A DNA stretch of 33,882 nucleotides from Nemertoderma westbladi. Lineage: Eukaryota; Animalia; Xenacoelomorpha. The notes beneath the pieces were generated by a model, which saw only the letters and a program-made list of their open reading frames with translations, was not told the origin of the DNA and did not search any database. This document shows, in pieces, positions 1,166-30,305 of the stretch. Location of the stretch: the NCBI GenBank assembly GCA_032718475.1, contig JAUCBJ010003522.1, positions 1 through 33,882 on the forward strand. Reading direction: 5' to 3'. How positions within the stretch are numbered: the first letter of the stretch is position 1; each line of letters starts with the position of its first letter. Position numbers and translations under genes: made by a program.

Positions 1166-2751
1166 TGTTGCCGTTATTCCTACACCAGGGGGAAAAACGC
1201 CGATGCTGGAGACGTGACTTAACAGACCACCGAGCCCCGGCCAGTCACCGGATATTGATTGTGGGGAGGGAATATTTCTAAGATGCAAGTTTGCGGTTGA
1301 GAAAAGCTGCATTAGTTGGATATACTCTTTAATGTAACTTCCTATAGTTGAAAACCTGATTAAGAATAATTTTGGGCTTCCCCAAATCAATATACACCAA
1401 ATATTCACAATAATTATACACGATAATATAAATCCCTACGGTATATTATTTAATAACCCACTGTTCGCTCAGAATTTTAGCCTACCTAATGTTCCCCAGA
1501 TTTTCCCTCAGTCCCAGTCTTAGTGCCGTAGTGTCGGTGTCGGTCGACCCTGTCGCGTGTCCGTTCCACCCCTCACGAACCCCGAAGGGAACGATCATCG
1601 AGAACCAGCCCGGCTTGGCTAAGGGTCGGTCCAGTCGGTAGACTCTGTCGCGTATCCGTACCACCCCTCTCGAACCCCGAAGGGTTCGGTCATCGAGAAC
1701 CAGTACGGCTTGGCTAAGAGTCTGTCGTGTCGGTGGACCCGTTCGCGTGTCCGTTCCACCCCTCACGAACCCCGAAGGGTTCGATCATCGAGAACCAGAA
1801 CGGCTTGGCTAGGGGTCCGTCAGTTCATTACAGAAACCCAACCACCTAGGCTTTCCGAGTCCGTTTCAGGCTCGTAGTCGCTTCGGCAGCCGAGAAACTG
1901 CTCCGAACGGTCGGTAGGCCAGTAGAGTCTAGTCGAGTCTAGTCCTTTGTCTTTCGACCCCATCGCGTGTCCGTTCCACCCCTCACGAACCCCGAAGGGA
2001 GCGATCATCGAGAACCAGAACGGCTTGGCTAAGGGGTCTGTCGTCGGTTCCCGTCGCAAATCCCAGTCAAGCAGTCAGCGTTCCGAGTTCTTTTCAGGCT
2101 CGTAGTAGCTGCAGTTGACCCGAGACCGCTAAGGGCAGTCCTTGTCAAACCAGTCCTGTGGCCAGCCCTTTCGCATGTCCGTCCCACCCCTCACGAACCC
2201 CGAAGGGATCGGTCATCGAGAACCAGTACGGCTTAGGTCAGGGGGCAGTCTTAAGTTGGCCACCTGTTCGCGTGTCCGCTCCACCCCTCACGAACCCCGG
2301 GGTTCGATCATCGAGAACCAGAACGGCTTGGCTACTAAGGGGCCGTCGGTGCCCGTCGCAAATCCCTGACACAAGCAGTCAGCGTTCCGAGTTCTTTTCA
2401 GTCTCGTAGTAGCTGCCGTTGGCCAGGGACCGCTAAGGGCAGTCCTTGTCCTTTAGGCCTGGCGCATTACCAAATCCACCCCTACAGGCAGCAGGAAGTT
2501 GGCCAGGGCCTAATAGTACTCAGGCTAACCTGAATACTGCTTGCATTTTCCATCCCCCCTGGCCCTTATAACTATGAAATTATTCCCGTACCCTGTAAGT
2601 TGCCCCAAAGTTCGCCCATAAATCGCCCCCAGTTTATTGAATGTGCCCAAAACCCATGGTCCCGCACCCAGTAGTAATATCGGAATAATCAATTTTAATA
2701 AAATACAAAAATATTCAACTCGCGTTATGGAAAGTTGAAATACCGCGAACA
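1166..2751 (-). repeat. 5' LTR of element A (TGTT...AACA; may extend to 1096)
   Basis: Homologous to 9595-11084 and 19799-20990; contains six ~70-nt core repeats starting near 1553, 1648, 1743, 1963, 2171 and 2268. Confidence 0.88.
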
Positions 2752-5700
2752 ATCGGAATCCCAGTAATTTACCGGTATCGGAATCCCAGTAACTTACCAG
2801 TGTCGGAATCCCAGTTAACTTACCGGTATCGGAATCCCAGCAACTTACCGGTATCGGAATCCCAGTAACTTACCGGTATCGGAATCCCAGTAACTTACCA
2901 GTGTCGGAATCCCAGTAACTTACCAGTGTCGGAATCCCAGTAACTTACCGGTATCGGAATCCCAGTAACTTACCAGTGTCGGAATCCCAGTAACTTACCA
3001 GTGTCGGAATCCCAGTAACTTACCGGTATCGGAATCCCAGTAACTTACCGGTATCGGAATCCCAGTAACTTACCGGTATCGGAATCCCAGTAACTTACCG
3101 GTATCGGAATCCCAGTAACTTACCGGTATCGGAATCCCAGTAACTTACCGGTATCGGAATCCCAGTAACTTACCGGTATCGGAATCCCAGTAACTTACCG
3201 GTAGCGGAATCCCAGTAACGTACCGGTATCGGAATCCCAGTAACTTACTGGTATCGGAATCCCAGTAACTTACCGGTATCGGAATCCCAGTAACTTACCA
3301 GTGTCGGAATCCCAGTAACTTACCGGTATCGGAATCCCAGTAACTTACCAGTGTCGGAATCCCAGTAACTTACCGGTATCGGAATCCCAGTAACTTACCG
3401 GTATCGGAATCCCAGTAACTTACCAGTGTCGGAATCCCAGTAACTTACCGGTATCGGAATCCCAGTAACTTACCGGTATCGGAATCCCAGTAACTTACCA
3501 GTGTCGGAATCCCAGTAACTTATCGGTATCGGAATCCCAGTAACTTACCAGTGTGGGAATCCCAGTAACTTACCGGTATCGGAATCCCAGTAACTTACCA
3601 GTGTCGGAATCCCAGTAACTTACCGGTATCGGAATCCCAGTAACTTACCAGTGTCGGAATCCCAGTAACTTACCAGTGTCGGAATCCCAGTAACTTACCA
3701 GTGTCGGAATCCCAGTAACTTACCGGTATCGGAATCTCAGTAACTTACCGGTATCCGAATCCCAGTAACTTACCGGTATCGGAATCCCAGTAACTTACCG
3801 GTGTCGGAATCCCAGTAACTTACCGGTATCGGAATCCCAGTAACTTACCGGTATCGGAATCCCAGTAACTTACCGGTATCGGAATCCCAGTAACTTAACA
3901 GTGTCGGAATCCCAGTAACTTACCGGTATCGGAATCCCAGTAACTTACCGGTATCGGAATCCCAGTAACTTACCGGTATCGGAATCCCAGTAACTTACCG
4001 GTATCGGAATCCCAGTAACTTACCGTTATCGGAATCCCAGTAACTTACCGGTAGCGGAATCCCAGTAACTTACCAGTGTCGGAATCCCAGTAACTTACCG
4101 GTATCGGAATCCCAGTAACTTACCGGTATCGGAATCCCAGTAACTTACCGGTATCGGAATCCCAGTAACTTACCAGTGTCGGAATCCCAGTAACTTACCG
4201 GTATCGGAATCCCAGTAACTTACCGGTATCGGAATCCCAGTAACTTACCAGTGTCGGAATCCCAGTAACTTACCGGTATCGGAATCCCAGCAACTTACCA
4301 GTGTCGGAATCCCAGTAACTTACCGGTATCGTAATCCCAGTAACTTACCAGTGTCGGAATCCCAGTAACTTACCGGTATCGGAATCCCAGTAACTTACCG
4401 GTATCGGAATCCCAGTAACTTACCAGTGTCGGAATCCCAGTAACTTACCGGTATCGGAATCCCAGTAACTTACCGGTATCGAAATCCCAGTAACTTACCG
4501 GTATCGGAATCCCAGTATCTTACCGGTATCGGAATCCCAGTAACTTACCGGTATAGGAATCCCAGTAACTTACCGGTATCGGAATCCCAGTAACTTACCA
4601 GTGTCGGAATCCCAGTAACTTACCGGTATCGGAATCCCAGTAACTTACCAGTGTCGGAATCCCAGTAACTTACCGGTATCGGAATCCCAGTAACTTACCA
4701 GTGTCGGAATCCCAGTAACTTACCGGTATCGGAATCCCAGTAACTTACCGGTATCGGAATCCCAGTAACTCACCAGTGTCGGAATCCCAGTAACTTAGCG
4801 GTATCGGAATCCCAGTAACTTACTAACTTACCGGTATCGGAATCCCAGTAACTTACCGGTGTCGGAATCCCAGTAACTTACCGGTATCGGAATCCCAGTA
4901 ACTTACCGGTATCCGAATCCCAGTAACTTACCGGTATCGGAATCCCAGTAACTTACCAGTGTCGGAATCCCAGTAACTTACCGGTATCGGAATCCCAGTA
5001 ACTTACCGGTATCGGAATCCCAGTAACTTACCGGTATCGGAATCCCAGTAACTTACCGGTATCGGAATCCCAGTAACTTACCGTTATCGGAATCCCAGTA
5101 ACTTACCGGTAGCGGAATCCCAGTAACTTACCAGTGTCGGAATCCCAGTAACTTACCGGTATCGGAATCCCAGTAACTTACCGGTATCGGAATCCCAGTA
5201 ACTTACCAGTGTCGGAATCCCAGTAACTTACCGGTATCGGAATCCCAGTAACTTACCGGTAGCGGAATCCCAGTAACTTACCGGTATCGGAATCCCAGTA
5301 ACTTACCGGTATCGGAATCCCAGTAACTTACCAGTGTCGGAATCCCAGTAACTTACCGGTATCGGAATCCCAGTAACTTACCAGTGTCGGAATCCCAGTA
5401 ACTTACCGGTATCGGAATCCCAGCAACTTACCAGTGTCGGAATCCCAGTAACTTACCGGTATCGGAATCCCAGTAACTTACCAGTGTCGGAATCCCAGTA
5501 ACTTACCGGTATCGGAATCCCAGTAACTTACCGGTATCGGAATCCCAGTAACTTACCAGTGTCGGAATCCCAGTAACTTACCGGTATCGGAATCCCAGTA
5601 ACTTACCGGTATCGGAATCCCAGTAACTTACCGGTATCGGAATCCCAGTAACTTACCAGTGTCGGAATCCCAGTAACTTACCGGTATCGGAATCCCAGTA

Positions 5701-7472
5701 ACTTACCAGTGTCGGAATCCCAGTAACTTACCGGTATCGGAATCCCAGTATCTTACCGGTATCGGAATCCCAGTAACTTACCGGTATCGGAATCCCAGTA
5801 ACTTACCGGTATCGGAATCCCAGTAACTTACCGGTATCGGAATCCCAGTAACTTACCGGTATCGGAATCCCAGTATCTTACCGGTATCGGAATCCCAGTA
5901 ACTTACCGGTATCGGAATCCCAGTAACTTACCGGTATCGGAATCCCAGTAACTTACCAGTGTCGGAATCCCAGTAACTTACCGGTATCGGAATCCCAGTA
6001 ACTTACCAGTGTCGGAATCCCAGTAACTTACCGGTATCGGAATCCCAGTAACTTACCGGTATCGGAATCCCAGTAACTTACCGGTATCGGAATCCCAGTA
6101 ACTTACCGGTATCGGAATCCCAGTAACTTACCGGTATCGGAATCCCAGTAACTTACCGGTATCGGAATCCCAGTAACTTACCAGTGTCGGAATCCCAGTA
6201 ACTTACCGGTATCGGAATCCCAGTAACTTACCGGTATCGGAATCCCAGTAACTTACCGGTATCGGAATCCCAGTAACTTACCGGTATCGGAATCCCAGTA
6301 ACTTACCAGTGTCGGAATCCCAGTAACTTACCGGTATCGGAATCCCAGTAACTTACCAGTATCGGAATCCCAGTAACTTACCGGTATCGGAATCCCAGTA
6401 ACTTACCGGTATCGGAATCCCAGTAACTTTCCGGTATCGGAATCCCAGTAACTTACCAGTGTCGGAATCCCAGTAACTTACCGGTATCGGAATCCCAGTA
6501 ACTTACCAGTGTCGGAATCCCAGTAACTTACCGGTATCGGAATCCCAGTAACTTACCGGTATCGGAATCCCAGTAACTTACCGGTATCGGAATCCCAGTA
6601 ACTTACCGGTATCGGAATCCCAGTAACTTACCGGTATCGGAATCCCAGTAACTTACCAGTGTCGGAATCCCAGTAACTTACCGGTATCGGAATCCCAGTA
6701 ACTTACCAGTGTCGGAATCCCAGTAACTTACCGGTATCGGAATCCCAGTAACTTACCGGTATCGGAATCCCAGTAACTTACCGGTATCGGAATCCCAGTA
6801 ACTTACCAGTGTCGGAATCCCAGTAACTTACCGGTATCGGAATCCCAGTAACTTACCGGTATCGGAATCCCAGTAACTTACCGGTATCGGAATCCCAGTA
6901 ACTTACCAGTGTCGGAATCCCAGTAACTTACCGGTATCGGAATCCCAGTAACTTACCAGTGTCGGAATCCCAGTAACTTACCGGTATCGGAATCCCAGTA
7001 ACTTACCGGTATCGGAATCCCAGTAACTTACCGGTATCGGAATCCCAGTAACTTACCGGTATCGGAATCCCAGCAACTTACCGGTATCGGAATCCCAGTA
7101 ACTTACCAGTGTCGGAATCCCAGTAACTTACCGGTATCGGAATCCCAGTAACTTACCAGTGTCGGAATCCCAGTAACTTACCGGTGTCGGAATCCCAGTA
7201 ACTTACCGGTATCGGAATCCCAGTAACTTACCGGTATCGGAATCCCAGTAACTTACCAGTGTCGGAATCCCAGTAACTTACCGGTATAGGAATCCCAGTA
7301 ACTTACCGGTATCGGAATCCCAGTAACTTACCGGTATCGGAATCCCAGTAACTTACCAGTGTCGGAATCCCAGTAACTTACCGGTATCGGAATCCCAGTA
7401 ACTTACCGGTATCGGAATCCCAGTAACTTACCGGTATCGGAATCCCAGTAACTTACCGGTATCGGAATCCCA
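2752..7472 (-). repeat. 25-bp tandem satellite (~189 units), minus-strand unit TGGGATTCCGATACCG|GTAAGTTAC, derived from a DAW1 exon/intron junction
   Basis: Period 25 is directly visible. The rightmost unit is the last 16 nt of exon 7457-7578 plus the first 9 intron nt. Confidence 0.97.
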
Positions 7473-7578
7473 CAACCGACATGACTTATCCATGGACCCA
7501 GTAGCGATTATCGAACTATCGAAATTAAAGGTAGCGCTAGAAATCTCAGCATTGTGACCCGCCAAAACTTTATCGCAC
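7457..7578 (-). CDS. DAW1: DAW1 coding exon ([42 protein letters not shown])
   Basis: Acceptor ttttcacttag and donor G|gtaagt. WD40 repeat matching recalled DAW1 '[31 protein letters not shown]'. Phase fits exon 23405-23511. Missed by the ORF track. Confidence 0.92.
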
Positions 7579-8023
7579 CTAAGTGAAAATAAAGTTAGGG
7601 TGAGTGAGGTATGGAGTGAGGAGTTAAAGTATGGGTGAGGGTGTTATATAAGTGAGATAGGACGGGAATTTGGCTAAAGATACCTGAGGCAGGACAGTAA
7701 CTAGAGGGGACGAGCCTCACTTCCCACTTGTAGTTGTAAATAAATGTCCAATTTGTTAATATAAGTAATGCAGTTTCGAATAGATTACTAAATTTAATAG
7801 GAGCAATTAATAGTTGAATAAAAAGGGATATTGGTAGGATATACAACAAATATAAGCTAACATTCGTATTGGTTATATTTTGTAATTTTATAAAATATTT
7901 TTATTCCAAAATTCTAACATTACCCAACGCCGTTAGTATTAACAGCGAGTTGTTATTTATCACTTTACAACTTTAGAAGACATTACAGCATATTATTGGT
8001 ATATTTAGTATTGTATTTGGTGT

Positions 8024-8114
8024 TATTGTTTACTTGGTAACCCATGACGACGTTAAGTAATGTACACTGAGGGGACATTACTTAACGCCGTCATTGGATA
8101 CCACGTAAACAATA
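8024..8114. repeat. Hairpin: 40-bp inverted arms with an 11-nt loop (tiny MITE or pre-miRNA-like)
   Basis: tattgtttacttggtaacccatgacgacgttaagtaatgt versus acattacttaacgccgtcattggataccacgtaaacaata, about 4 mismatches. Confidence 0.8.
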
Positions 8115-9162
8115 GGTGGAAATTTGCCTGACAGCCAGATAGGCCTACTGCATTACCTACCAGTAGACGGGGTATAGCTATTAATAACCAGTAGGGCGTA
8201 GCTATATTATTATAACATGGCTCCAAACGCCACCATAAATATAAGCTAACTTATTTATAACATAATTTATGTCTTTTTTACATTTATTTATACAGCAACT
8301 AGTATAATTTGTGCAGTTTCTATCACCTACAATCATTTCGTAATGTTAAAATTTTGGAATAAAACGACATACATACTTGTTGCAAAGTACTTTACAGTGT
8401 TCTGATCCTCGTGGCTTTATTTTGTTTAGTGTGCTATTTTACACACAAGTATGTAAATAGTTATTACGTAATCATTGCAATTATTATTGTAATAAACAGT
8501 AATATATAATATGTAAACTCAAACAATGACGCGACACGACTAAACTATTCACTGCTGCTGACAATATAACAATAAGCTTGTCTATGTACAGTACAATATG
8601 TAAGGTAATAGAAAAAGAAACTGTGAAAAAACAATTTACTAATTTAAAGCTAAAAATATGGGGAGCGTAGAGATTACTATACTTTATTGCATATTAACCC
8701 CAATGTCCATGATGAACACGATTAAATGTTCATTGTTAGTTGTTACGTTGGGAAATTAATTTATTTACAATTGCTGTACTCTATATATTTTTAACCGGTT
8801 CAGTTTAGAGCCATTTGATCACAAAATTGACCAGGTTTTACCTAACAAGTGCCAACTGTTGAATATTTTGAAATTAAGTAACTTTTGTTCTCCTAACATG
8901 TAATATTTATATAAATGACCCAAGATACAAAAAATATAATTCCTATGAAGTGGATTTATTTTTGATATACCGCTGCAATCTTAATTTGGTTAAAATTTGA
9001 CCGTTTGGAGTAAAATAGGGTGGGTTGGGCCAACTCTTAGAAATCGCTACCAGTGTTATTTTTCTTATCCTGAAACGCTCTTTAAATGATCACAGTTTTA
9101 GTGAATATATTCCAAAGAAGTTGTTAAACTACTTATCAGACTTTCAATGAAGAGTAAATTAT

Positions 9163-9188: not shown

Positions 9189-9440
9189 TTTGTTTTTCCG
9201 GATGTAAAATTGTATGGTGATTCCGAATCTGAAATCAGTTTTACGATAAGTTGTTTTGGTTTCGAGTTATGGCATGGCAACATGTGTTCCAAACTAGTTT
9301 GATAGTTCCAATTAGTTTGTTAAATTATTATCAACATTTATATATTTTTTAAACATTATTACCAATTAGTTTAAAATACTTTTCAACACTTGTAAAAAAG
9401 TATAGAAATGAAGTTTTCTTCGACCGTTAGAGCTAACATT

Positions 9441-9594
9441 TAAGGATGCAAGGCATATATGCTCCCTGGTTAGCCCCTTCAAACCATTCGTGCTAAATAT
9501 AAAACTGCATTGGCCCACATGGTGGGATCGAACCCACGACCTCCAGATAGATTGGAAATCAATGCAACCACTATACGTATACACCAAGGTGGAA
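9441..9594 (-). mobile_element. tRNA-derived SINE-like element (degenerate)
   Basis: Minus strand has A-box-like TAGTGG and B-box GGTTCGATCCC; a second diverged copy lies at 26100-26229. Confidence 0.7.
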
Positions 9595-11084
9595 TGTTGC
9601 CGTTATTCCCGACACCATGGGGGAAAAACGCCGATGCTGGAGGCGGAACTTTACAGACCACGGAATCCCGGCCAGTCACCGGATATTGATTGTGGAGAAG
9701 GAATAATTTCTTAGATGCAAGATTGCGGTTGAGAAAAAGCTGCATTGGTTGGATATATTCTTTAATGTAGTTAATCTCACTGAACCCTGATTGAGAATAA
9801 ATTGGGCTTCCCCAAATCAATATACACCAAATTATTCACAATAATAATACACGACAATATAAATCCCTACAGTAAATTATTTAATTACCCACTGTTCGCT
9901 CAGATTTTAGCCTAACTAATGTTCCCCAGATTTTCCCTCGGTCCTAGTCTTGGTGCCGTAGTGTCGGTGTCGGTCGACCCTGTCGCGTGTCCGTCCCACC
10001 CCTCACGAACCCCGAAGGGAACGATCATCGAGAACCAGTACGGCTTGGCTAAGGGTGGGTCCAGTCGGTAGACTCTGTCGCGTATCCGTACCACCCCTCT
10101 CGAACCCCGAAGGGATCGGTCATCGAGAACCAGTACGGCTTGGCTAGGAGTCTGTCGTGTCGGTGGACCCGTTCGCGTGTCCGTCCCACCCCTCACGAGC
10201 CCCGAAGGGAACGATCATTGAGAACCAGTACGGCTTGGCTAGGGGTCCGTCGGTTCATCGCAGAGACCCAACCACCTAGGCTTTCCGAGTCCTTATTCAG
10301 GCTCGTAGTCGCTTCGGCGGCCGAGAAACTGCTCCGAACAGTCGGTAGGCCAGTAGAGTCCAGTCCTCTGTCTTTCGACCCCGTCGCGTGTCCGTCCCAC
10401 CCCTCACGAACCCCGAAGGGAACGATCATCGAGAACCAGTACGGCTTGGCTAAGGGGTCTGTCGTCGGTTCCCGTCGCAAATCCCTGGCACAAGCAGCAG
10501 ACTTTCCGATGTCCTTTTCAGGCTCGTAATAACTGCTGTTGACCAGAGACCGCTAAGGGCAGTCCTCGTCAAACCCTTCCTCTGTTAGTCGGCCGCCCTT
10601 TCGCGTGTCCGTCCCACCCCTCGCGAACCCCGAAGGGATCGGTCATCGAGAACCAGTACGGCTTGGCTAAGGGGGCTGTCGTTTCCCGTCGCAAATCCCT
10701 GACACAAGCAGCAGACTTTCCGATGTCCTTTTCAGTCTCGTAATAACTGCTGTTGGCCAGGGACCGCTAAGGGCAGTCCTTGTCCTTTAGACCTAGCGAG
10801 TTACCAAATCCACCTCTACAGGCAGCAGGAAGTTGGCTAGGCCTAATAGTAATCAGGTAAACCTGAATACTGCTTAACTTTTCCTTCCCCCCTGGCCCTT
10901 ATATACATGAAATGAGTCCCGTACCCCGTAAGTCGCCCCAATATTCGCCCATAAATCGCCCCCAGTTCATAGAGTGTGCCCAAAACCCGTGGTCCCGCAC
11001 CCAGTAGTGATATCGGAATAATCATTTCAAATAAATACAAAAAATATTCAACTCGCGTTATGAAAAGTTGAAATACCGCGAACA
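9595..11084 (-). repeat. 3' LTR of element B (1490 bp)
   Basis: TGTT...AACA termini; preceded on the minus strand by a G-rich PPT; five core repeats near 9983, 10078, 10173, 10384 and 10601. Confidence 0.93.
10898..10905 (-). promoter_or_regulatory. Putative LTR TATA box (TATATAAG); equivalent at 20804-20811 and a variant near 2565-2572
   Basis: About 180 nt into the LTR, followed 25-30 nt later by an Inr-like GCAGT; implies a short U3 and a long transcribed R/U5. Confidence 0.55.
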
Positions 11085-11103
11085 GTCCCCCCCAATGACC
11101 TTC
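11085..11103 (-). other. Polypurine tract
   Basis: GAAGGTCATTGGGGGGGAC immediately precedes the TGTT of the 3' LTR on the minus strand. Confidence 0.75.
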
Positions 11104-11262
11104 GTGAGGTCTATCGGTAGATTGAGTTTGCATAGGTCATTCCCATATAAAAAACCCCAAATTTTTAATATTGCATAGTCTTGATTAATTTGGCCTAGAG
11201 TTCATATATATATATGTATAAAAATAAATGTTCAATAAATGTTCCTGGAATATCCCGGTCCA

Positions 11263-12381
11263 CTATTTCTTTCTCTGATACGCCTTTCTCCTCTTCGCCC
11301 GTCGACTCTCATCGATCGCTAGAGCTGGTAGAGGAGCGTCAACATCCATCGTGAGCAATGCTTCGGCTTGTCTCCTGGTGGCTCTTCCTTTCGATGGCAA
11401 CGGGATCATATCGGTTCGTCGTTCCAACTCGGAGTTGCGAGCCTCGAGGAACCACTCTCCGTCACCGAACTCCTCTTTATACGAGTATAAGCGTCTAAGG
11501 ACTTCGAATGGGCTGAATAATCCGGCGCTCAGCAACAGATCCACGTAATGGAAAGGTAGCGGTGCCGTCGTATGGAGGCACTCCGGGAAGGAAAAATACC
11601 TGCATGCCATCTCCTGCGCGATATTCCGAGCGTTTCTCCGCACTTTGGTCCTTATATGGCTGCTTGCGTATGTTTCGAACATGACCATATTTCCCACAGC
11701 GGTAACGTCTTTTGTAGGACATTTTATATAGCAGCGGGGGCTAGCGGAATGTCCACGGAAACCGCACGTAGTGCAGAGGTTATAGAGGATCGGACAGACT
11801 GAAACATCGTGGCCCGATGTCGCGCAGTATGGGCAATAAAGTATCCCGAGGAGCTGGAGGCACGAATCGGGAACCCGATTTCGTCTACCGCGTGGGCACT
11901 GCTCCGAACCACAGTTACCGCACACCTCCAACTGCATCTCTCGACCGGGGAATATCGGAATCGGGACGCCGACGTAATACTCGAGTCGTCGGTCGCTCTT
12001 TTGAATATTTGCGGTGGCCGGTAGCCATCGGAAAGCTGGGCTTTTGCGTAGTAGGTCCTCGCTCCAATAACCTTCTTTATGTCCTGTCGGTCTCAACTCG
12101 GACAACCGTTTCTGGCGGAGGATCCATTCGGTCTGCTCGGCGTACCAACGGGTTAGTCGCATAGGATCCTGTGGAACGGAGGGGGTAGTAGTCACCGCTG
12201 GTCGGCGGAGAGGTGCCGGGGTTTTTGACGGAGGGATTCCGAGGAGATCGTCGGGAGTCGGCGCAGCGCTGGGACCCTTTTCAACCAGTATCGCTGAACG
12301 GGACCGTGAGTGCTGGTACTCGGAATCTCCGACGACCAGTCTTCGCCACCCGGGAAAGGATATGGGGATAACCTTTGGCAT
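11263..12381 (-). CDS. Extra ORF, C-terminal part: CCHC zinc-knuckle protein with a basic tail
   Basis: CPYCATSGHDVSVC (CX2CX4HX4C), CTTCGFRGHSASPRC and CGNC; ends RRAKRRKAYQRKK; overlaps the 474-aa ORF in the -1 frame. Confidence 0.7.
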   Translation of the reverse strand: MPKVIPISFPGWRRLVVGDSEYQHSRSRSAILVEKGPSAAPTPDDLLGIPPSKTPAPLRRPAVTTTPSVPQDPMRLTRWYAEQTEWILRQKRLSELRPTGHKEGYWSEDLLRKSPAFRWLPATANIQKSDRRLEYYVGVPIPIFPGREMQLEVCGNCGSEQCPRGRRNRVPDSCLQLLGILYCPYCATSGHDVSVCPILYNLCTTCGFRGHSASPRCYIKCPTKDVTAVGNMVMFETYASSHIRTKVRRNARNIAQEMACRYFSFPECLHTTAPLPFHYVDLLLSAGLFSPFEVLRRLYSYKEEFGDGEWFLEARNSELERRTDMIPLPSKGRATRRQAEALLTMDVDAPLPALAIDESRRAKRRKAYQRKK

Positions 12382-13670
12382 ATGTCGCCGAAGTCGTTTA
12401 ACGCAAAGGTAGTAACTAACTCCCTCGCAGGGCTACCGGAGCCGAGTGGCGCGGTAACCGCTTCCGTCGCAGGTTCGGCAGAGGCAACCCGTTTGGCTGC
12501 CGGTTGGTAAGCGGCTTCCGGCTCGAGTTGTCGCTTCGGGGTGGAGATTAGAACGCCCTCATGTAGCCATAGTTCTTCCCCTTCCGAAGAAATCAGAGGC
12601 TCTTCCGCCCCGAGAAGATCGGTAATCGTAGGGATGTCGTAAGGTCCGTTCTCGTCCCAGGAATAGATAACGGCGAGCGTTTTCGTCTCTCCCAGTGTGA
12701 TGTTCTCGACCGCTTTGAACGCGTGGTTTATAACCTTGTTCCAGTCGTAGTCGACAAAGGAAAGAGGAACCACCGTAATGAGGTTATCGAGGGTTTTACA
12801 GATAAATTTAGCGACGGTGTATGATTCCATAACGACGTAGATGTAGTTCCGTCTATCCGGCTTCTCCCACCTTTGGTGTATCGTCCACTTTCTCTCAACG
12901 TCCTTCCATCGACCCTCTCGCTCGCTCTTTATTTCTAATCCCGGGTATCCACCATATATTTTATTATAGTCCTGGAATTTCTGAGGTTTGAAGTCGATAC
13001 CGCCGTTTAGCACAGCGAGGTAGCCGATCCCGGATTTCGTTTGTCTCACCTCGCGGAAACCTCGTATGAATTCGGCGGATCGTAACCAGGCTAATAGCGT
13101 TTGGGTGTCGACGCAATGACTAAGGGCGTTGAGGTCGTCTCGCCGGTCTCTTCCTAAAGGAGCGTTCGCGTAGTCGTTCCGGACGTCCGCCTTTATATCC
13201 GACCCGATTTTAATGACGTCGAAGTCGAAGAGGATCTTTTGGATTTCCGGAGGTAGTAACCAGATCGCTCCGGCTGCCTGCACTTCCTGTCTGGGTGTCG
13301 GAAATATTCGACACACCAATACCAAACCGTCCAGGGTTCCGAGGACGACGACCAAGGATCGACCGTATTCTTTCGCCGCGTACTTTTCCTGGTAGTCGTC
13401 ACGATTCTGGATGATCAATATACGTTCCTCTCGTAGCATCGCCGTACACTCCGACAGGTTTCCCCAGTGGGCGAGGTACGTACTCTTGTCGTCGACGAAA
13501 CTTTGACATCCCGCCAACGTCATCGCTTTCGAGGTGGGCGTTGCGTTTCCCTCGTTGTCGTATATCAAACATCGGGATCTGTAGACGCTTTGCCGAAACG
13601 TTTCCCAATACGACAACTCATCCCCTCCGGTCCGGTAGCCTTTGCGTTCCGAGTTCTTTTCAGTCTCGTA
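12192..13670 (-). CDS. Extra ORF, central part: WRN/RNase D-like (DEDDy) 3'-5' exonuclease-fold protein
   Basis: LPPEIQKILFDFDVIKIGSDIKAD, CVDTQTL, SGIGYLA and RW..PDRRNYIYVVMES match the order of WRN-exo family motifs. The frame is open from 13670; the track start at 13616 is TTG. Confidence 0.65.
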   Translation of the reverse strand, partial: YETEKNSERKGYRTGGDELSYWETFRQSVYRSRCLIYDNEGNATPTSKAMTLAGCQSFVDDKSTYLAHWGNLSECTAMLREERILIIQNRDDYQEKYAAKEYGRSLVVVLGTLDGLVLVCRIFPTPRQEVQAAGAIWLLPPEIQKILFDFDVIKIGSDIKADVRNDYANAPLGRDRRDDLNALSHCVDTQTLLAWLRSAEFIRGFREVRQTKSGIGYLAVLNGGIDFKPQKFQDYNKIYGGYPGLEIKSEREGRWKDVERKWTIHQRWEKPDRRNYIYVVMESYTVAKFICKTLDNLITVVPLSFVDYDWNKVINHAFKAVENITLGETKTLAVIYSWDENGPYDIPTITDLLGAEEPLISSEGEELWLHEGVLISTPKRQLEPEAAYQPAAKRVASAEPATEAVTAPLGSGSPARELVTTFALNDFGDICQRLSPYPFPGGEDWSSEIPSTSTHGPVQRYWLKRVPALRRLPTISSESLRQKPRHLSADQR

Positions 13671-13864
13671 CTAGCATCGGCCAACCGGAGGGCTCGTAGA
13701 TTCCAGGAATCCGGTCCCTCTCGCCCGCAGAATTTGACGACTCGCACATTCTCATTTATCAGGGTGCTCCAATTTGTATTAAAGTTAGGGGATCCGGGTT
13801 GTGGATATTCCAGTAGATCTATCATATTACGTAATTCGCCGATAATTTGGCGATTTGGGTCCAT
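13565..13864 (-). CDS. 99-aa ATG-initiated ORF, possible N-terminus of the extra ORF (frame switch)
   Basis: First ATG after the AT-rich spacer; overlaps the exonuclease-like frame. Confidence 0.45.
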   Translation of the reverse strand: MDPNRQIIGELRNMIDLLEYPQPGSPNFNTNWSTLINENVRVVKFCGREGPDSWNLRALRLADASTRLKRTRNAKATGPEGMSCRIGKRFGKASTDPDV

Positions 13865-14417
13865 ATTTACAATTATGTCCGTTGCAAAATTATATCAGTT
13901 AATTATAAATCCAGAAAGTCTGAAACTATAGTGATTGCAGAATAATTCAGTTTATTTTTAATTCAGTTTATTAAATAACATTGCTATATAGGCATCTATC
14001 ATCTTATTGCTAATACATTCAGCATTTACAGTTACTATAGCTATACATTTAATATCCAACCAGTTTTTATGACTTTTTATGTCCTCTTCTTTTTTTCCAA
14101 TTCTTTTCTTTAGACATTTTTATACTTTTTTTTTGTCTTTTTTCATTTCTCATTATTATTTCATCACATTTCATTTATTTCAACACATTTCATCATTTAG
14201 TTCCACCATTTCTTTCACATTTATCACATTTATTTCCACATCATCATTGGGGTTATAGCCCCCCGGCTATCATCATTTGTTCTAAGCGCAGCACCAGGGT
14301 GCGCATCATTTCATTTTCATCATCATACACGTCATCATTCAGTTTATAGTAATGTCGTCTGTTTCTTTTCATCTTTACCAACTACATTCAATCATCTTCT
14401 TTGGGAAATTTTCGTCG

Positions 14418-14845
14418 TGGAAGGGGTGTTACGCAGCAATCTGGGATCTACAGCTGGGCTAGTTACACCGCCTATGCCCCAAACTGCACACGTAACGGAC
14501 AATGAAGACGCTGGGAGTGAAGTCACGTGGATTGCACCAGGGACCCACCAGAATAACACTCCCAACAACATAAAGCTCAGCCGACGAAGTCATGTGGGAT
14601 GGGGTTACGCAACATTCTGGGATCTACAGCTGGACTAGTTACACCACCTACGCCCCAAAATCCACGCAATGGTCCCACCAGAATAACGCGACTGAGAAAC
14701 ATAAAACCTCTATCGTCGAAGTCATGTGGATGCACCATGGACCCACCAGAATAACGGGATAGAGGGGGTATTGCGCGGCAATCCGGGATCTACAGCCGGA
14801 CTAGTTACACCGCCTACGCCCCGAACTGCACACGCAACGGACAAC
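14418..14845. repeat. Three diverged ~60-80-nt direct repeats between pol and the extra ORF
   Basis: Core tcyggGATCTACAGcyggrCTAGTTACACCrCCTAyGCCCC near 14440, 14616 and 14782. Confidence 0.85.
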
Positions 14846-15117
14846 ATAACATACTACAATGGATACAATGAATTCCACTTCAAATCTTTACCATTTCCAA
14901 TAATCCAATGCCATTGGTCCTGATGACCAAAATCAAGGTAAACAATACATAAACGACCCTGCGTCAGTCGAAACATCTGCAGGGTGACGCTGGACTCCAC
15001 ATAACACACGAGGAAACACAAATACCATTGCGTGGTTACAGTTGGTTTAAGGGGGGTCCATTTTCATTGTCGATAAATCACAGTTATTAAAGAGTTTGTC
15101 AACAGGAGGAGAAGGGT

Positions 15118-17679
15118 TTAAACGGGTTTAGCATTGTCACCAATGTCTGCAGCAGGATCCTTAGTAGGGAAATTATCACCTCTCGTAGAGTCACCACTGT
15201 CATTGCCTTCAAGAAGGCACAGCCTCTGGATAGGGCGTTGGTAGTGGCCCTTTGCCGTTCGTATCGTCACAGTCCTCGCAAGTCCGTCTTTGGTCGGTTG
15301 TATTGCCACGACTCGCGCCACAGGCCAGTGGACGCGGTCTTTGAGGTCTTCTTTGACCAGCACCATGTCGCAAATTTCGACATTCCTGTAGGTGTTGTTC
15401 CACTTCCTCCTGGTCCGGAGGGTTATGAGGTACTCCTGGGCCCAGATTCTCCACCAATGCGCTGCCAACGCTTGGGCCTTCTTCCAGTTAGTATGTCTTG
15501 CAATATCGTCGGGATCCGGAAACATCGTCTCTGGGAGAATATGGGTTTTGCGTCTTCCCAGGAGGTGGTTAGGAGTGAGAGGCTCCAGGTCTGTGGGGTC
15601 GTCGCGGATAGGGACAATGGGCCGGTTGTTCAGGGTAGCCGTGATCTCGCAGAATGTTGTGCGGAGGGTGTCATGGGTTACCCGGGTGTCTCCTAATGCG
15701 ACGCGCATGGATCGTTTTACTAAGTCGATCAGCTTCTCCCATACCCCGCTCGTATGGGGTGCTAAGGGTGTTTGAAAGTGCCACTGTATGTGGTGGTCCC
15801 TCCAGACTTGGGATGCGGTGTCCTCGGTAAACCATCCCTCGATCGCCTCTCTAAGTTCTCTTTCTCCTCCCACAAAGTTTGTACCGTTATCGGAGTACAT
15901 ATGACGACATGTCCCGTTGTTCGCCACGAACCGACGCAGGGCGTTGATGAATGCGTGTTGCGTAAGGTTCACCACAATGTCTAGGTAGATTGCCCTAGAC
16001 GTAAGGCAGGTAAAGATGGCTCCCCAGCATTTGATGTTGGATCGTCGCTCGATGACCGTAAACGGTCCGAAACAGTCCACTCCGGTGACGTAGAACGGTG
16101 GGGAATCGGACTGTAGACGTGTGGCTGGTAAGTCTGCCATCTTTTGCGTGAGTGGTGGCGCTAGATACCTTCTGCAGGGAAAGCAACGTTTCAACACTTT
16201 CCGGATCAGTGGCTGGATGTGGGTGATCCAATATCTTTGTCTTATATTAGCTATAATCCAGTTCTGTCCTGCGTGATGGTTTTCCTCGTGACACTGTTGA
16301 ATTAATAGCTTGGCTAGTGTCGACGTTCCGGGCAGAAGTGCCGGGTATTTAACCTCATATTCAACCGGGGCGTTTGCCATCCGGGTATTCAGTCGGATCA
16401 GTCCGTCCTCTCCCATCATTGGTCTCAGTTGGTAGACTGGGCTGTCCGGTTTCAAAGTCTTGCCCGCACTGAGTTGTTCCCACTCATCGGGGAAACTTTC
16501 TCTCTGGACATATCCAACAATACACTTCTCCGCGATAATGAGTTCTTGTATGCTCCGTTTATCTATCAGCTTGTTGTCTTTCCACCGTAGGAAATTGCGA
16601 AGGGTAATAACGTGGTGGACGAGCCGTCTCATTGATGAAGTTCGCTCGATCAACAGATGTAAGGACGCCGCTGGTTGAGTGATCGTCGCGACGTTATAGT
16701 GCCTGCCCGAGTCCTTTGCAGGCTCGGTCAGACAACTATAAATTTCCACTGCGTTGCTTCTATGGACTTTACGGATCTCTTTGTCGTCCTCGGAGTATTT
16801 TCCGCTATCGAGTTCGGGATCGAATCGAGTACTCCATGTTAATTGTGGTTGTTGTAGGAATTCCGGGCCTGTAAGCCAGAGTTTACTCTTACCGAGTTGT
16901 TTTGGGGTGGCGCCTCGGCTTGATAAGTCCGCTGGATTTTCTTTCCCGTTCACGTGGTGCCACTGTTCTCGGCTGGTGCATTGTTTTATCTCCGTGGCTC
17001 GGTTCGCTACAAACGTGTGTCGCCGTGATGGTGAATGGAGGTTGGTTGCCGAACAGTAACCCACGGAGGTTGCATTCTCTTTAATCTGACATTTCGGAAG
17101 GTATGTATAGGTATCTGTAGTCTCTTCCTTGATGCCGCAGAGTGTCCATCCCATTATTGTTCGTTCAGCGTAAAAGCCGTCATCCTGCTTTATAGATCGG
17201 GCGACGTCTCCGGTGGGTATGTGTAATTCCGGTGTATCAAGTCCGATCAGTAAGGTGATGCGGTTTACATCCAACGGTGGGCACCTTAGGTCTACATCGT
17301 CTCGGTCCAACTGTATGAGGGGGGCATACTCGGCTGATTGTCGGAACCGCACTCGTAGGTTGGTGTGTACCAAGGCGTTCTCGATGGTCAGCTTAACTGT
17401 CTCGTAGCCCTTCATTACTCCTTCCATCTGGAGCTGCACCTCCCCGGATTCTACCTCTCTATGGTCGGTGATAGTTTGTATGGGCCGTTTGCAAGGTTCA
17501 TAGTCTAGGCCAAGTTGCTCGAGGAAATCCCGGTCGATGATGGTTCCGTCCGACCCGTTATCAAGGAAAGCGAGCGTCGTCAAGGATTTGCCGACCCCTT
17601 GAATTCTTACTGGGATTACTTTGGCGAAGACCATGTAACGGCGATTTATAAGGTTGATCTTGGCTGAGATATTTGTCAC
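15118..17679 (-). CDS. pol: BEL/Pao pol remnant: aspartic protease, RNase H C-terminal end and complete integrase; no RT
   Basis: FLDNGSDGT; AERTIMGW; FVANR..EI...WHHVNGKENPADLSSRG; HEENHHAG...CFPC; VDCFGP, SDNGTNF, GVWE; LTPNHLL; WPVARV...DGLAR...RPIQRLCLL. No YVDD RT motif. Confidence 0.93.
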   Translation of the reverse strand: MTNISAKINLINRRYMVFAKVIPVRIQGVGKSLTTLAFLDNGSDGTIIDRDFLEQLGLDYEPCKRPIQTITDHREVESGEVQLQMEGVMKGYETVKLTIENALVHTNLRVRFRQSAEYAPLIQLDRDDVDLRCPPLDVNRITLLIGLDTPELHIPTGDVARSIKQDDGFYAERTIMGWTLCGIKEETTDTYTYLPKCQIKENATSVGYCSATNLHSPSRRHTFVANRATEIKQCTSREQWHHVNGKENPADLSSRGATPKQLGKSKLWLTGPEFLQQPQLTWSTRFDPELDSGKYSEDDKEIRKVHRSNAVEIYSCLTEPAKDSGRHYNVATITQPAASLHLLIERTSSMRRLVHHVITLRNFLRWKDNKLIDKRSIQELIIAEKCIVGYVQRESFPDEWEQLSAGKTLKPDSPVYQLRPMMGEDGLIRLNTRMANAPVEYEVKYPALLPGTSTLAKLLIQQCHEENHHAGQNWIIANIRQRYWITHIQPLIRKVLKRCFPCRRYLAPPLTQKMADLPATRLQSDSPPFYVTGVDCFGPFTVIERRSNIKCWGAIFTCLTSRAIYLDIVVNLTQHAFINALRRFVANNGTCRHMYSDNGTNFVGGERELREAIEGWFTEDTASQVWRDHHIQWHFQTPLAPHTSGVWEKLIDLVKRSMRVALGDTRVTHDTLRTTFCEITATLNNRPIVPIRDDPTDLEPLTPNHLLGRRKTHILPETMFPDPDDIARHTNWKKAQALAAHWWRIWAQEYLITLRTRRKWNNTYRNVEICDMVLVKEDLKDRVHWPVARVVAIQPTKDGLARTVTIRTAKGHYQRPIQRLCLLEGNDSGDSTRGDNFPTKDPAADIGDNAKPV

Positions 17680-17773
17680 TTGTGATGCATCAGTTTTAAA
17701 CGGGTTGGTTTCTCTCCGTTGGGTTGTCCGGGTTCCTTTAGAAACGTGGTTCGTTTCTCCTCTTCGCTTGGCT

Positions 17774-19403
17774 TCAATCCGAAAGGGGAGGGTGGTTTAG
17801 AATGTTGTTTACTTGTTCCTCCTTATTTAATGGTTTTAGAGTGTAGTAGGCATCCTTCATCGAATCTGAGAATTCTTGGATATTCTGTGGGTCCCCTAGG
17901 GATCCCGCGTCCTGTATCAGTTTCTCGAGAGTTTTATTAATTATAGTCCCGATATTTCCGTATCTTTTATCTAGAGTTTTCCATGCGTCATAGTATGCCT
18001 CATGAGCTCCTCCCTCAAAGCATGCGATAATTCGGTGTGGTTTGTCACCCAGGTATTGTGATAAATATACCAGTTTCTGTGCGTCGGCTATGTCCGTTGA
18101 TCCAATCTGCGCAAAGAACCGTTTCTTGAATCTGAGGTAATCGACGGGATCTCCTTCGAAGGGATGTAAACGGGTTGTTGGATCGGGGAGTGGCGATCCG
18201 TTCCGAGTCCTTTTCAGGCTCGTACTTGGGGACGCTCGGGACCGTGGGAGTGGCTGGGATATAAGGTTCCTCATTCTTTAGCGTAACAGGTGGGGGATGG
18301 AATACCGGTGCTTGTGCCGATAACGTAGACTGTATGGTAGGCGGGAACTCGGGTTTCGGGGGTTTCACCGTCGGTGTCGTTAATGACTTCTCTAATTCTG
18401 GTATCGGTATTGGTTCATAGTTCTGATCTATATCCCTTTCCCAGTCCTCGTATATTTGAATATCTCGTTCTATGAGTGCGGCTTCGTATTCCGCGAGTTT
18501 CGCAATATCCGCATTCTTTTTGTGTATGAGAATCGCTTGGGCCTCGGCGTATTGTTTACGCATTTCTGCTTCCCATTTACGTTGTTCGATCTCTTGTTGG
18601 GCCTCTCATCCACGTTGTTCAGCTTCCTGTTCACGTTGTTCGGCCTGCCGTTGGGCTTCCTGTTCACGTTGTTCGGCCTGCCGTTTGGCCTCTCGCCTAT
18701 GTTGTTCAGCTTCCTGTTCACGTTGTTCGGCCTGCCGTTTGGCCGCTTGCTCGGCCTCTTGTTTTTGCATTTCAGCGGCTAATACATCTTGCTCGGTTCG
18801 CAGTTGAACATACTCATCTTCCATCCGAGCTTTGAGGGCTAATGCCTTCTGTTCTCGTAGCTGATCTCGGAGTGGCTGACCCCCTTGAGAACTGCGCGCT
18901 GAGCCGGATATCTCGCTCCTAGCGCTGGAGTGCTGGTGTCTTGAGGACCCCGTTCTCTTTCGATGAATTGTGGTCCTAGTGTTGGAGGTTTGCACTGATT
19001 CTGCGTCTGTTCTTTCAGCTTTCTTGTAGTACTGTTCCTCGTAGCCTCTCACGAGGCTGAGGGTCCTCCGGTGTTGTTTGCGGAATTCGTCTAGGCGTGC
19101 AACGTGTTCTTCCAATTTGGGGTAGTTTACCTGGTCGGTGGCGGGGATGAGTTCTCGGTACGCCTGTATCATTCTCTCATATCGTTGTAAGATACTTCGG
19201 ATATTCTGAAGCTGAGTTTGTATCTCGTTGAGGGGGGTTTCGACTCCCTTGAGTTGTTTCTCTATACGTTGATACGCTCGAGTGACTCCGCCTTTGAGAG
19301 CACCTAGTCGACGGGCCATGTTCTTGACATTCGGTACCTCGTCGGCTTCCGAGTCTGTGTGGTGATCCATCTCATCAGTATCGGATACGTTATTCGTCGT
19401 CAT
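17774..19403 (-). pseudogene. gag: gag of element B, disrupted
   Basis: Coiled-coil N-terminus; in-frame TGA at 18606-18608 (CGA in the equivalent repeats); +1 frame switch within 18170-18277 into DUF1759-like FEGDPVDYLRF...QKLVYLSQYL...LDKRYG; another +1 switch near 17780-17798; no CCHC knuckles. Confidence 0.85.
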
Positions 19404-19591
19404 TGTAGCGCCTCGTCGATAGCTAGATGTGCGATGTCGTAAAATAGTTCCTCGTAGGTATTGTACTCAGCCTGGACCACCCGAACGGTAATCCTGAATC
19501 GTCCGACGTTCGTTCCTTGTACTTCAACCTCGACGTGCCAGATTCCTGGCTCAACTTGGATTATATCAATTGGTGTGATCGATACTTCCAT
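19400..19591 (-). CDS. 63-aa ORF upstream of gag (element B), unknown function
   Basis: Conserved with 723-914; ATGA overlap with gag. Confidence 0.8.
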   Translation of the reverse strand: MEVSITPIDIIQVEPGIWHVEVEVQGTNVGRFRITVRVVQAEYNTYEELFYDIAHLAIDEALQ

Positions 19592-19798
19592 TCCCTGTTA
19601 ACAACTCTCCAAATATGTGATCTGCCGACTACGAGTTGGTTAGATCGAGTTTGTTGATTAATTAAACCACGACTTTGTCTTAACTCAAATACCAGAGTTT
19701 CCTTGTAGTGGGTGCTGGTAAGCACGGAGAGAGTTTGAAGAGTATTGTAGGATTCCCAACTTCCACCAGTTGAAGTTGGCGCGTTTTATTCTCAATTT

Positions 19799-20990
19799 TG
19801 TTGCCGTTATTCCCGACACCATGGGGGAAAAACGCCGATGCTGGAGGCGGAACTTTACAGACCACAGAATCCCGGCCAGTCACCGGATATTGATTGTGGA
19901 GAAGGAATAATTTCTTAGATGCAAGATTGCGGTTGAGAAAAAGCTGCATTGGTTGGATATATTCTTTAATGTAGTTAATCTCACTGAACCCTGATTGAGA
20001 ATAAATTGGGCTTCCCCAAATCAATATACACCAAATTATTCACAATAATAATACACGACAATATAAATCCCTACAGTAAATTATTTAATTACCCACTGTT
20101 CGCTCAGATTTTAGCCTAACTAATGTTCCCCAGATTTTCCCTCGGTCCTAGTCTTGGTGCCGTAGTGTCGGTGTCGGTCGACCCTGTCGCGTGTCCGTCC
20201 CACCCCTCACGAACCCCGAAGGGAACGATCATCGAGAACCAGTACGGCTTGGCTAAGGGTCGGTCCAGTCGGTAGACTCTGTCGCGTATCCGTACCACCC
20301 CTCACGAACCCCAAAGGGAACGATCATCGAGAACCAGTACGGCTTGGCTAAGGGGTCTGTCGTCGGTTCCCGTCACAAATCCCTGGCACAAGCAGCAGAC
20401 TTTCCGATGTCCTTTTCAGGCTCGTAATAACTGCTGTTGACCAGAGACCGCTAAGGGCAGTCCTCGTCAAACCCTTCCTCTGTTAGTCGGCCGCCCTTTC
20501 GTGTGTCAGTCCCACCCCTCGCAAACCCCAAAGGGATCGGTCATCGAGAACCAGTACGGCTTGGCTAAGGGGGCTGTCGTTTCCCGTCGTAAATCCCTGA
20601 CACAAGCAGCAGACTTTCTGATGTCCTTTTCAGGCTCGTAATAACTGCTGTTGGCCAGGGACCGCTAAGGGCAGTCCTTGTCCTTTAGACCTAGCGAGTT
20701 ACCAAATCCACCTCTACAGGCAGCAGGAAGTTGGCTAGGCCTAATAGTAATCAGGTAAACCTGAATACTGCTTAACTTTTCCTTCCCCCCCCCCCCCCTG
20801 GCCCTTATATACATGAAATGAGTCCCGTACCCCGTAAGTCGCCCCAATATTCGCCCATAAATCGCCCCCAGTTCATAGAGTGTGCCCAAAACCCGTGGTC
20901 CCGCACCCAGTAGTGATATCGGAATAATCATTTTAAATAAATACAAAAAATATTCAACTCGCGTTATGAAAAGTTGAAATACCGCGAACA
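19799..20990 (-). repeat. 5' LTR of element B (1192 bp; may extend to 19771)
   Basis: Near-identical to 9595-11084 except a ~305-bp deletion between core repeats, a longer C run and about a dozen substitutions. Confidence 0.93.
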
Positions 20991-23404: not shown

Positions 23405-23511
23405 CTTCCGGTCTTTACGTCCCAGATATTTACATTGTGATCGAAACTCGCAGTGATCAATTTGTCTCCCGAAGAATTAAAACAAACAGAAATAATTTCA
23501 GCTGAATGTCC
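23405..23511 (-). CDS. DAW1: DAW1 coding exon ([36 protein letters not shown])
   Basis: Acceptor ttttag, donor gttagt, WD40 repeat, phases consistent. Confidence 0.93.
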
Positions 23512-23610: not shown

Positions 23611-23818
23611 CGAGAGATTAGAGACCAACTCCCCAGACTCTACGCTCCATAGCTTTGCCGTTTGATCCATTGACCCGGTAGCTACCAATGTACTCTGGGG
23701 GTTGAAACAGACGGTCACTATCTCAGCGCTGTGTCCTTTGAAGGTATGAAAATTCTTTCCAGTTTCGGAAGACCAAAGTTTCGCTGTTTTATCGAAAGAC
23801 CCGGTACAAATCTTATCC
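23611..23818 (-). CDS. DAW1: DAW1 coding exon ([70 protein letters not shown])
   Basis: Acceptor aag, donor gtatgt; continues NNPYG|DK as in DAW1. Confidence 0.93.
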
Positions 23819-24857: not shown

Positions 24858-24922
24858 GGATTGTTGAAGGACAAACGTAAGTTAACTGACCCGTAAGGAT
24901 TGTTGAAGGACAAACGTAAGTT
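24858..24922 (-). repeat. Tandem copies (39-bp period) of the 3' end and donor of DAW1 exon 28184-28306
   Basis: 24881-24915 matches 28174-28208 at 34/35 nt. Confidence 0.9.
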
Positions 24923-28183: not shown

Positions 28184-28306
28184 CCGTAAGGATTGTTGAA
28201 GGACAAACAATAGACAACGTTTTTATGTCCCTCCAACGAATGAACCTCTTCTCCACTCGCCGAGTCCCACACCTTGCAGGTCCGATCGTAACTACCGGTG
28301 ACGAAA
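28184..28306 (-). CDS. DAW1: DAW1 coding exon ([42 protein letters not shown])
   Basis: Acceptor ttttatag, donor gttagt; matches recalled DAW1 [20 protein letters not shown]...NNPYG. Confidence 0.95.
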
Positions 28307-29750: not shown

Positions 29751-29954
29751 CTGGAACCTGATTTATTGAAGGCGACGTTAGTTAGCGGCAGAATGTGGGC
29801 TCGAAGAACTTTAAATAAATAGAACGTGCGGTCTTCTTGTTGTATTAGTTTCTGTTGAAGTCTTTGGATTAATTGTTGAACCTGATTAACTCTGGACGCC
29901 GTTATAAGAGGCTCCTTAATCATTATTTCCTGGATCAACTGATCCACATTGGTA
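29751..29954 (-). CDS. DAW1: DAW1 coding exon ([10 protein letters not shown]...[24 protein letters not shown])
   Basis: Acceptor ttgcag, donor gtcagc; [16 protein letters not shown] is characteristic of DAW1/ODA16. Confidence 0.95.
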
Positions 29955-30232: not shown

Positions 30233-30305
30233 TCAGAACGCAAATCCAACAAGTCGATAGACTTTGTTTTCAGATTACCAGACTGTTCATATTCCAGGAT
30301 AATTC
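30233..30305 (-). CDS. DAW1: DAW1 coding exon ([25 protein letters not shown])
   Basis: Acceptor tttttag, donor gtaagt; matches recalled [22 protein letters not shown]. Confidence 0.93.

What the first reader, a model, noticed from the sequence alone, without database searches (positions are those of the whole stretch)
2752..7472. A 4.7 kb satellite made of about 189 copies of a host exon end plus its consensus 5' splice site
Seen: on the minus strand the DAW1 exon ends ...CGG TTG TGG GAT TCC GAT ACC G|GTAAGTTAC, and exactly TGGGATTCCGATACCG|GTAAGTTAC is the satellite unit, so the intron opens with about 189 consensus G|GTAAGT donors. Read-through meets TAA in the second unit, and donor 2 shifts the frame, so only the first donor gives intact protein. 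Established: G|GTAAGT pairs with U1 snRNA, and U1 binding suppresses premature intronic polyadenylation. Inference: either a splice-junction-seeded tandem amplification process, or a U1-loading/decoy array. It lies directly upstream of a sense-oriented LTR that could otherwise terminate the transcript.
Basis: partly seen in the sequence, partly recalled or inferred. Interest (0 to 1): 0.85.

Follow-up and report, generated by a model that had tools for sequence, protein, structure and literature searches.

The report
Repeated splice donor in DAW1 intron
The last 16 bases of an exon of an animal's cilia gene DAW1, with the splice signal behind them, are repeated about 188 times into the next intron, yet the one spliced transcript seen uses only the first signal, so this is likely a harmless new example of a repeat type already known from human and lancelet genes.

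Summary
The array is real: 188.5 copies of a 25-base unit made of 16 exon bases and 9 intron bases of DAW1; 177 of 188 full units keep G|GTAAGT. DNA runs of two studies hold it at high depth. One run that behaves as RNA gives a single 1,554-base contig that joins the previous exon, this exon and the next one through donor 1, with no repeat units. The array stops in mid-unit at a BEL/Pao LTR, so the LTR likely arrived later, and the array may go on outside the window. The U1-loading idea is not supported: donor positions are not protected from change, and the intron upstream is spliced across 18 AATAAA motifs with no such array. The build is known: human F7, IFI6, CBS, ABCA7 (25-base unit, up to about 427 copies, second donor used and predicted to be removed by NMD) and lancelet 'mirages'. 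This scan has noted at least 14 other junction arrays in this genome and more in other animals (unchecked). Verdict: new member of a known kind. Open question: whether junctions seed arrays above chance in this genome; no whole genome was held to test it.

The parts
2752..7472 (-). Tandem array, 188.5 x 25 bp; unit = 16 exon bases + 9 intron bases; two main unit types interspersed
7457..7578 (-). DAW1 exon (122 nt, one WD40 repeat), sixth exon found in the window; used in the spliced contig of run X4
7448..7472 (-). Unit 1, holding the authentic donor (exon ends at 7457, intron starts at 7456)
   Evidence: X4 contig leaves the window here and reads on in frame as the next DAW1 exon
7428..7430 (-). 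In-frame TAA met on read-through, inside donor 2
1166..2751 (-). 5' LTR of a BEL/Pao-type element that begins right after base 12 of the last unit; the element runs off the window
   Evidence: junction also in run X1; family from Pfam hits of the sister element
23405..23511 (-). Preceding DAW1 exon, joined to 7578 in the X4 contig
23611..23818 (-). DAW1 exon
28184..28306 (-). DAW1 exon whose 3' end and donor are copied again downstream
24858..24922 (-). Second, small junction copy: about 1.7 tandem copies of a 39-base unit holding the last 25 bases of exon 28306-28184 and its donor (34 of 35 bases alike), 3.3 kb into the intron; ends approximate
29751..29954 (-). DAW1 exon (N-terminal region; best hits are named DAW1, up to 76% identity)
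30233..30305 (-). Most upstream DAW1 exon found
9595..20990 (-). Sister BEL/Pao-type element with two LTRs, sense-oriented, in the intron upstream of the exon, with no donor array before it

Best explanation
This is a minisatellite whose first unit spans the real DAW1 exon-intron junction, likely born as a chance 25-base tandem duplication and likely tolerated because copy 1 leaves exon and donor intact while all other copies fall in the intron. Steps: (1) duplication across the junction (identity shown, direction inferred from protein conservation); (2) growth by ordinary minisatellite turnover, slippage and block duplication, perhaps helped by the unit's self-complementarity (pattern shown, process inferred); (3) the spliceosome takes the most upstream of the identical donors (shown in one RNA contig; the 5'-to-3' rule is taken from human F7 work); (4) any use of donor 2 or later gives a frameshift or stop and would be cleared by NMD (frame shown, decay inferred); (5) an LTR element inserted into the array afterwards (inferred from the cut unit). 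No selected function is needed.
For: Direction: the unit starts with the WD codons of the WD40 repeat; in 35 of 35 fetched proteins with a matching motif the fifth residue after W is G, the codon split by this intron, and the X4 contig continues in frame as DAW1. Splicing: X4 has one contig, depth 545, 0 mismatches, no intron or array cover. Real DNA: runs X1 and X2 (two studies) each have a contig from exon into unit 2; array contigs reach depth 3500 against 15.8 for the flank in X2 and 444 against 11 in X3. Turnover: three rare unit types recur at a lag of 42 units; a two-change variant pattern is spread through 50 units. Minus-strand DNA of four units folds at z -3.2. Two other large arrays in the window (30-mer x 23, 11-mer x 71) match no exon border, so this genome amplifies other seeds too. 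Precedents: PMC1557585, PMC5954066, PMC3087553, PMC3902484 (passages).
Against: A second junction copy sits in the same gene, and unchecked notes list 14 more junction arrays in this genome, which may be more than survival alone explains. Donor-changing variants stay single more often than others (8 of 9 against 4 of 11, Fisher p 0.03), though the events are not independent. The RNA evidence is one contig of one sample; contigs drop rare isoforms, and that animal's own allele was not seen. The plus strand does not fold better than shuffles (z -0.5).
Confidence: 0.7

Rival explanations
1. In this animal splice junctions seed or amplify tandem arrays above chance, through a mutational bias tied to transcription or splicing (for example breaks or slippage where polymerase and spliceosome pause). 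This array would be one product; its splicing is tolerated in the same way as in the best explanation.
For: Second exon-end copy in the same gene. Unchecked notes of 8 donor-side and 6 acceptor-side arrays in this genome. PMC3087553 (passages) calls the origin of mirages unclear and possibly general in lancelets.
Against: One junction copy among about 10 other short tandem duplications in the window is expected by chance 18-27% of the time. The notes come from a scan that picks such cases out, so they give no rate. Two of three large arrays here are not junction-derived.
Confidence: 0.22
2. The array is kept by selection as a U1 snRNP loading platform that suppresses premature cleavage at the sense LTR behind it (or as a U1 decoy).
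For: 179 GTAAGT motifs in 4.7 kb; an AATAAA lies 114 bases past the array, at 2638. Donor-changing variants are mostly singletons. U1 bound at cryptic donors can suppress nearby poly(A) signals (PMC5499120, passages).
Against: The LTR cuts the last unit, so it likely came later. No depletion of changes in the donor. The sister element upstream has 8 AATAAA and no GTAAGT, the whole upstream intron 18 and 2, and X4 is spliced across that intron (whether that allele carries the element is unknown). The AATAAA at 2638 is not in the two sister LTRs (read by eye). Only the last 20-40 units would lie within the reported range. Noted acceptor-side arrays cannot load U1 this way (unchecked).
Confidence: 0.05
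3. The array length is an assembly artefact, a short repeat blown up or a longer one collapsed.
For: No long read was available; depth-based counts differ widely between runs (about 60 in X3, about 320 in X2).
Against: 26 unit types with ordered rare variants; high depth in three DNA runs of two samples; both junctions, exon-to-unit-2 and array-to-LTR, are in X1 contigs.
Confidence: 0.03

Closest known systems
Human ABCA7 intron 18 VNTR (De Roeck et al. 2018, PMC5954066; passages)
   Same: 25-base unit that includes the exon's splice donor; 12 to about 427 copies (up to 10.7 kb); use of the second donor keeps one unit and shifts the frame, with NMD or truncation expected.
   Different: The ABCA7 unit starts at the GT, with no exon part; here 16 of 25 bases are exon, so each decoy has the true exon-side context. 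Second-donor use is shown for ABCA7, not seen here.
Human F7 intron 7 37-bp VNTR, with IFI6 (6-16), CBS intron 13, LMNB2 and PDGF intron 4 as cited there (Borensztajn et al. 2006, PMC1557585; abstract and passages)
   Same: First monomer spans the exon-intron boundary; identical pseudo-donors follow; the most upstream site is the one used.
   Different: 5 to 26 copies there, 188 here; 6-16 and CBS also use two pseudo-sites; here the donors match the GTAAGT consensus, F7's do not.
Amphioxus 'mirage' minisatellites: Adh3, globins BflGb6 and BflGb9, troponin C, PGBD5 (PMC3087553, PMC3902484; passages)
   Same: Tandem copies of an exon-intron boundary in an invertebrate, several per gene, length-unstable, reported not to disturb splicing.
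   Different: The copy numbers in the passages read are under 10; this array has 188 and carries an LTR insertion.

Membership tests
Junction-spanning minisatellite (F7 IVS7 type, lancelet 'mirage') | Head-to-tail array of a 10-160 bp unit | tested here: met
   25 bp x 188.5
Junction-spanning minisatellite (F7 IVS7 type, lancelet 'mirage') | First unit spans an authentic, used exon-intron boundary of the host gene | tested here: met
   X4 contig splices at 7457; exon is DAW1
Junction-spanning minisatellite (F7 IVS7 type, lancelet 'mirage') | Downstream pseudo-sites identical to the authentic site | tested here: met
   Units 2-4 equal unit 1; 177 of 188 keep GGTAAGT
Junction-spanning minisatellite (F7 IVS7 type, lancelet 'mirage') | Mature RNA mainly uses the authentic site | tested here: met
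   One contig of one run; rare isoforms would be dropped
Junction-spanning minisatellite (F7 IVS7 type, lancelet 'mirage') | Copy number varies between alleles | tested here: inconclusive
   Depth ratios differ about five-fold between X2 and X3, but contig depth is no copy number
U1 telescripting array | Donor motif conserved above the rest of the unit | tested here: not met
   9 of 20 distinct changes fall in the donor, 5.6 expected; weak opposite hint from singletons
U1 telescripting array | Array no older than the poly(A) threat it guards | tested here: not met
   LTR begins after base 12 of the last unit; order is inferred
U1 telescripting array | U1 occupancy and suppression of cleavage at the LTR | not testable with these tools
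   Needs CLIP and 3'-end sequencing
Intron gain by duplication of an AG|GT proto-site, or recursive splicing array | Unit holds an acceptor (pyrimidine tract, AG) directly before the GT | tested here: not met
   The only AG lies inside GTAAG, with no pyrimidine tract
Dispersed or mobile satellite family | Same unit at unrelated loci | not testable with these tools
   No genome held; two unit variants absent from the window occur in X1 and X3, place unknown

The most novel reading that the evidence does not exclude
This animal has a genome-wide mutational process that starts or drives satellite arrays at splice junctions, donor and acceptor side, so that gene architecture itself breeds satellite DNA; DAW1 carries a grown array at one donor and a seed-stage copy at another. 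The genome would then be a ready-made series, from 2 to over 1,000 identical sites, for testing how the first donor is chosen.
Probability: 0.22. Interest if true: 0.7.

Novelty: new member of a known kind. Interest (0 to 1): 0.25.

Why it matters
Alone, the array adds one more case to a described class, inside the size range of human ABCA7. It shows that 177 consensus donors with the true exon-side context can follow a constitutive exon without spoiling the main mRNA, which fits a first-come rule for 5' splice-site choice outside mammals. It would matter more if a genome-wide count showed junction arrays above chance in this animal, as that would point to a link between splicing and repeat birth.

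Tried and rejected
No whole genome was held, so the enrichment test and the far end of the LTR element were out of reach. The run search listed no holder on record as RNA; X4 was judged RNA by its spliced contig. X2 and X3 list no array-to-LTR loose end, which proves nothing about absence. An exact scan of metagenome contigs for the unit found 0, uninformative for an animal. No earlier notes near this place or in look-alike genomes. Recursive splicing and intron gain rejected: no acceptor in the unit. RNA folding pairs the donors of neighbouring units, donor 1 included (z -2.4 for four units, -0.8 for two), so structure does not explain why donor 1 wins. The X2 contig with 10 mismatches in 73 was dropped as evidence of outside units, since window stretches across the two indel units score as badly without gaps. 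No matching target duplication was seen for the sister LTR element. The short first coding exon was not found by a motif search. The first exon check had boundary slips, corrected. The organism was not determined; one paper on acoelomorph genomes (PMC10565955, passages) showed nothing on junction repeats. PMC2812944 (passages) treats repeats at boundaries as sources of new introns, a different outcome.

Full report
Observation. Tandem Repeats Finder reports one array at 2752-7472, period 25, 188.5 copies. A pattern search finds 188 matches within three mismatches and none in 100 shuffles. Splitting the minus strand gives 188 full units and a 12-base stub; 108 are exact and 45 are one variant with two changes in the exon-derived part. 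177 units keep GGTAAGT and 184 keep the GT. The window has no N.

The gene. Six minus-strand exons (30305-30233, 29954-29751, 28306-28184, 23818-23611, 23511-23405, 7578-7457), each with AG and GT ends, give a 278-aa frame with no stop, 72% identical to Mytilus DAW1. A search with the N-terminal exon returned 83 proteins, the best named DAW1. Unit 1 is the last 16 bases of exon 7578-7457 and the first 9 of the intron. It begins with the W-D codons of the WD40 repeat, and the glycine whose codon this intron splits is present in 35 of 35 fetched proteins that matched the motif. So the repeat was copied from the gene, not the other way round (inference). Donor 2 shifts the frame; donors 3-5 include the stop at 7430-7428, as all later ones must.

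Public runs. Six runs were listed, none on record as RNA; five were laid. X4 behaves as RNA: one 1,554-base contig at depth 545 covers 7455-7580 with no mismatch and nothing of the flanking intron or array. Its loose end on one side is the end of exon 23511-23405; on the other it reads on in frame like the next DAW1 exon, which lies outside the window (compared by eye with P0098). The two extra bases at each side are shared with the neighbouring exons. So the exon is used and donor 1 is used. Limits: one sample, contigs drop rare isoforms, and that animal's allele was not seen. DNA runs X1 and X2 (two studies) each have a contig that runs from the exon into unit 2 and stops at 7443, where words become repeated. 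Array contigs reach depth 3500 and 1566 (main and variant type) against 15.8 in X2, and 444 and 213 against 11 in X3. Depth is no copy number, but the array is high-copy in both samples; one of them may be the assembly's source. X1 also has the array-to-LTR junction. Two unit variants seen in X1 and X3 are absent from the window, so more units exist on another allele or outside the window.

The LTR. The array ends after base 12 of a unit, directly at the first base of an LTR (2751-1166) that is 85-91% like the two LTRs of a sister element at 20990-9595. The sister carries DUF1759, protease, integrase zinc-binding and DUF5641 matches, typical of BEL/Pao elements (family label from my own knowledge). 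A cut unit at the LTR edge is most simply read as insertion into an existing array; the other end is outside the window.

How the array grew. Three rare unit types recur at a lag of 42 units, a block duplication of about 1 kb. Main and variant types are interspersed (134 and 50 by the two diagnostic positions). Four units fold as minus-strand DNA at z -3.2, the plus strand does not, nor do the two other arrays. Those two arrays (30-mer x 23, 11-mer x 71) match no exon border. This is ordinary minisatellite behaviour (inference).

Test of the U1 idea. Of 20 distinct substitutions, 9 fall in the seven donor positions against 5.6 expected (p 0.13), so the donor is not shielded. Against my reading: 8 of 9 donor variants are singletons against 4 of 11 others (p 0.03), but several of the repeated variants come from one block duplication. 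The upstream intron has 18 AATAAA and 2 GTAAGT on the sense strand, with a sense LTR element and no array, and X4 is spliced across it. Telescripting is reported to reach about 500-1000 nt (PMC5499120, passages). An AATAAA does lie 114 bases past the array, but the sister LTRs lack it (by eye). I give this reading 5%.

A second junction copy. The last 25 bases of exon 28306-28184 and its donor recur at 24915-24881 (34 of 35 alike), as part of about 1.7 tandem copies of a 39-base unit, 3.3 kb into the intron. It looks like a small array of the same build that insertions later separated from its exon (inference). One such case among about ten other short duplications has an 18-27% chance under a simple position model, so it is a hint only.

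What is known. PMC1557585 (abstract and passages) describes minisatellites whose first monomer spans an exon-intron boundary in F7, 6-16, CBS, LMNB2 and PDGF, and shows that the most upstream donor is chosen. PMC5954066 (passages) describes a 25-base ABCA7 repeat that includes the donor, with up to about 427 copies and second-donor use that shifts the frame. PMC3087553 and PMC3902484 (passages) describe lancelet 'mirages', of unclear origin and harmless to splicing. I had recalled the 6-16, CBS and ABCA7 cases; the F7 and lancelet papers came up in my search and in earlier notes at the same time. No supplements were read. Searches listed no paper on this DAW1 array or on a genome-wide excess of junction arrays in an invertebrate; the library lacks most subscription papers.

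Earlier notes of this scan list 8 donor-side and 6 acceptor-side junction arrays in this genome and others in octopus, mussel and shark. I did not check them. They raise the chance of a genome-wide bias but come from a scan that selects such cases.

Verdict. A real junction-spanning minisatellite, a new member of a known kind, within the published size range. Most likely neutral and tolerated through first-donor choice, with NMD as an inferred backstop (70%). A junction-biased seeding process remains open (22%). Interest 0.25.

Noticed in passing
window 24858-24922 and 28174-28208: Second copy of an exon end plus donor, about 1.7 tandem units of 39 bases, 3.3 kb downstream of its exon; a 9-base inverted repeat lies near the two ends of the DNA between.
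   Followed up: partly
window 7441-7459 and 24876-24890 (approximate): In both junction-derived units the donor is followed by TTAC, the reverse complement of GTAA, so each unit is partly self-complementary; may be chance.
   Followed up: partly
window 12195-13670 (minus): Extra 492-codon frame between pol and the 3' LTR of the BEL/Pao-type element; no relevant Pfam hit; the Atlas gives a weak lead to Werner-like 3'-5' exonucleases (score 0.90, PF01612 on 38% of that cluster, 153 shared features). A second frame at 11266-12432 is cysteine-rich with no hit.
   Followed up: partly
window 9595-20990: Young-looking sense-oriented BEL/Pao-type element (LTRs 97-99% alike, of unequal length 1192 and 1490 through internal repeats) with no matching target duplication seen.
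   Followed up: partly
window 24035-24726 and 26992-27776: Two more arrays in one DAW1 intron, 30 bp x 23 and 11 bp x 71, unrelated to the exon borders found.
   Followed up: partly
window 32409-33882: A 1.5-kb imperfect palindrome, 87% alike to its own reverse complement.
   Followed up: no
window 7870-8518: Very high-copy interspersed repeat just upstream of the exon, summed depth up to about 560,000 against 19 in X1.
   Followed up: no
window 9431-9576 and 26090-26218: Two diverged copies (72%) of a short interspersed element.
   Followed up: no
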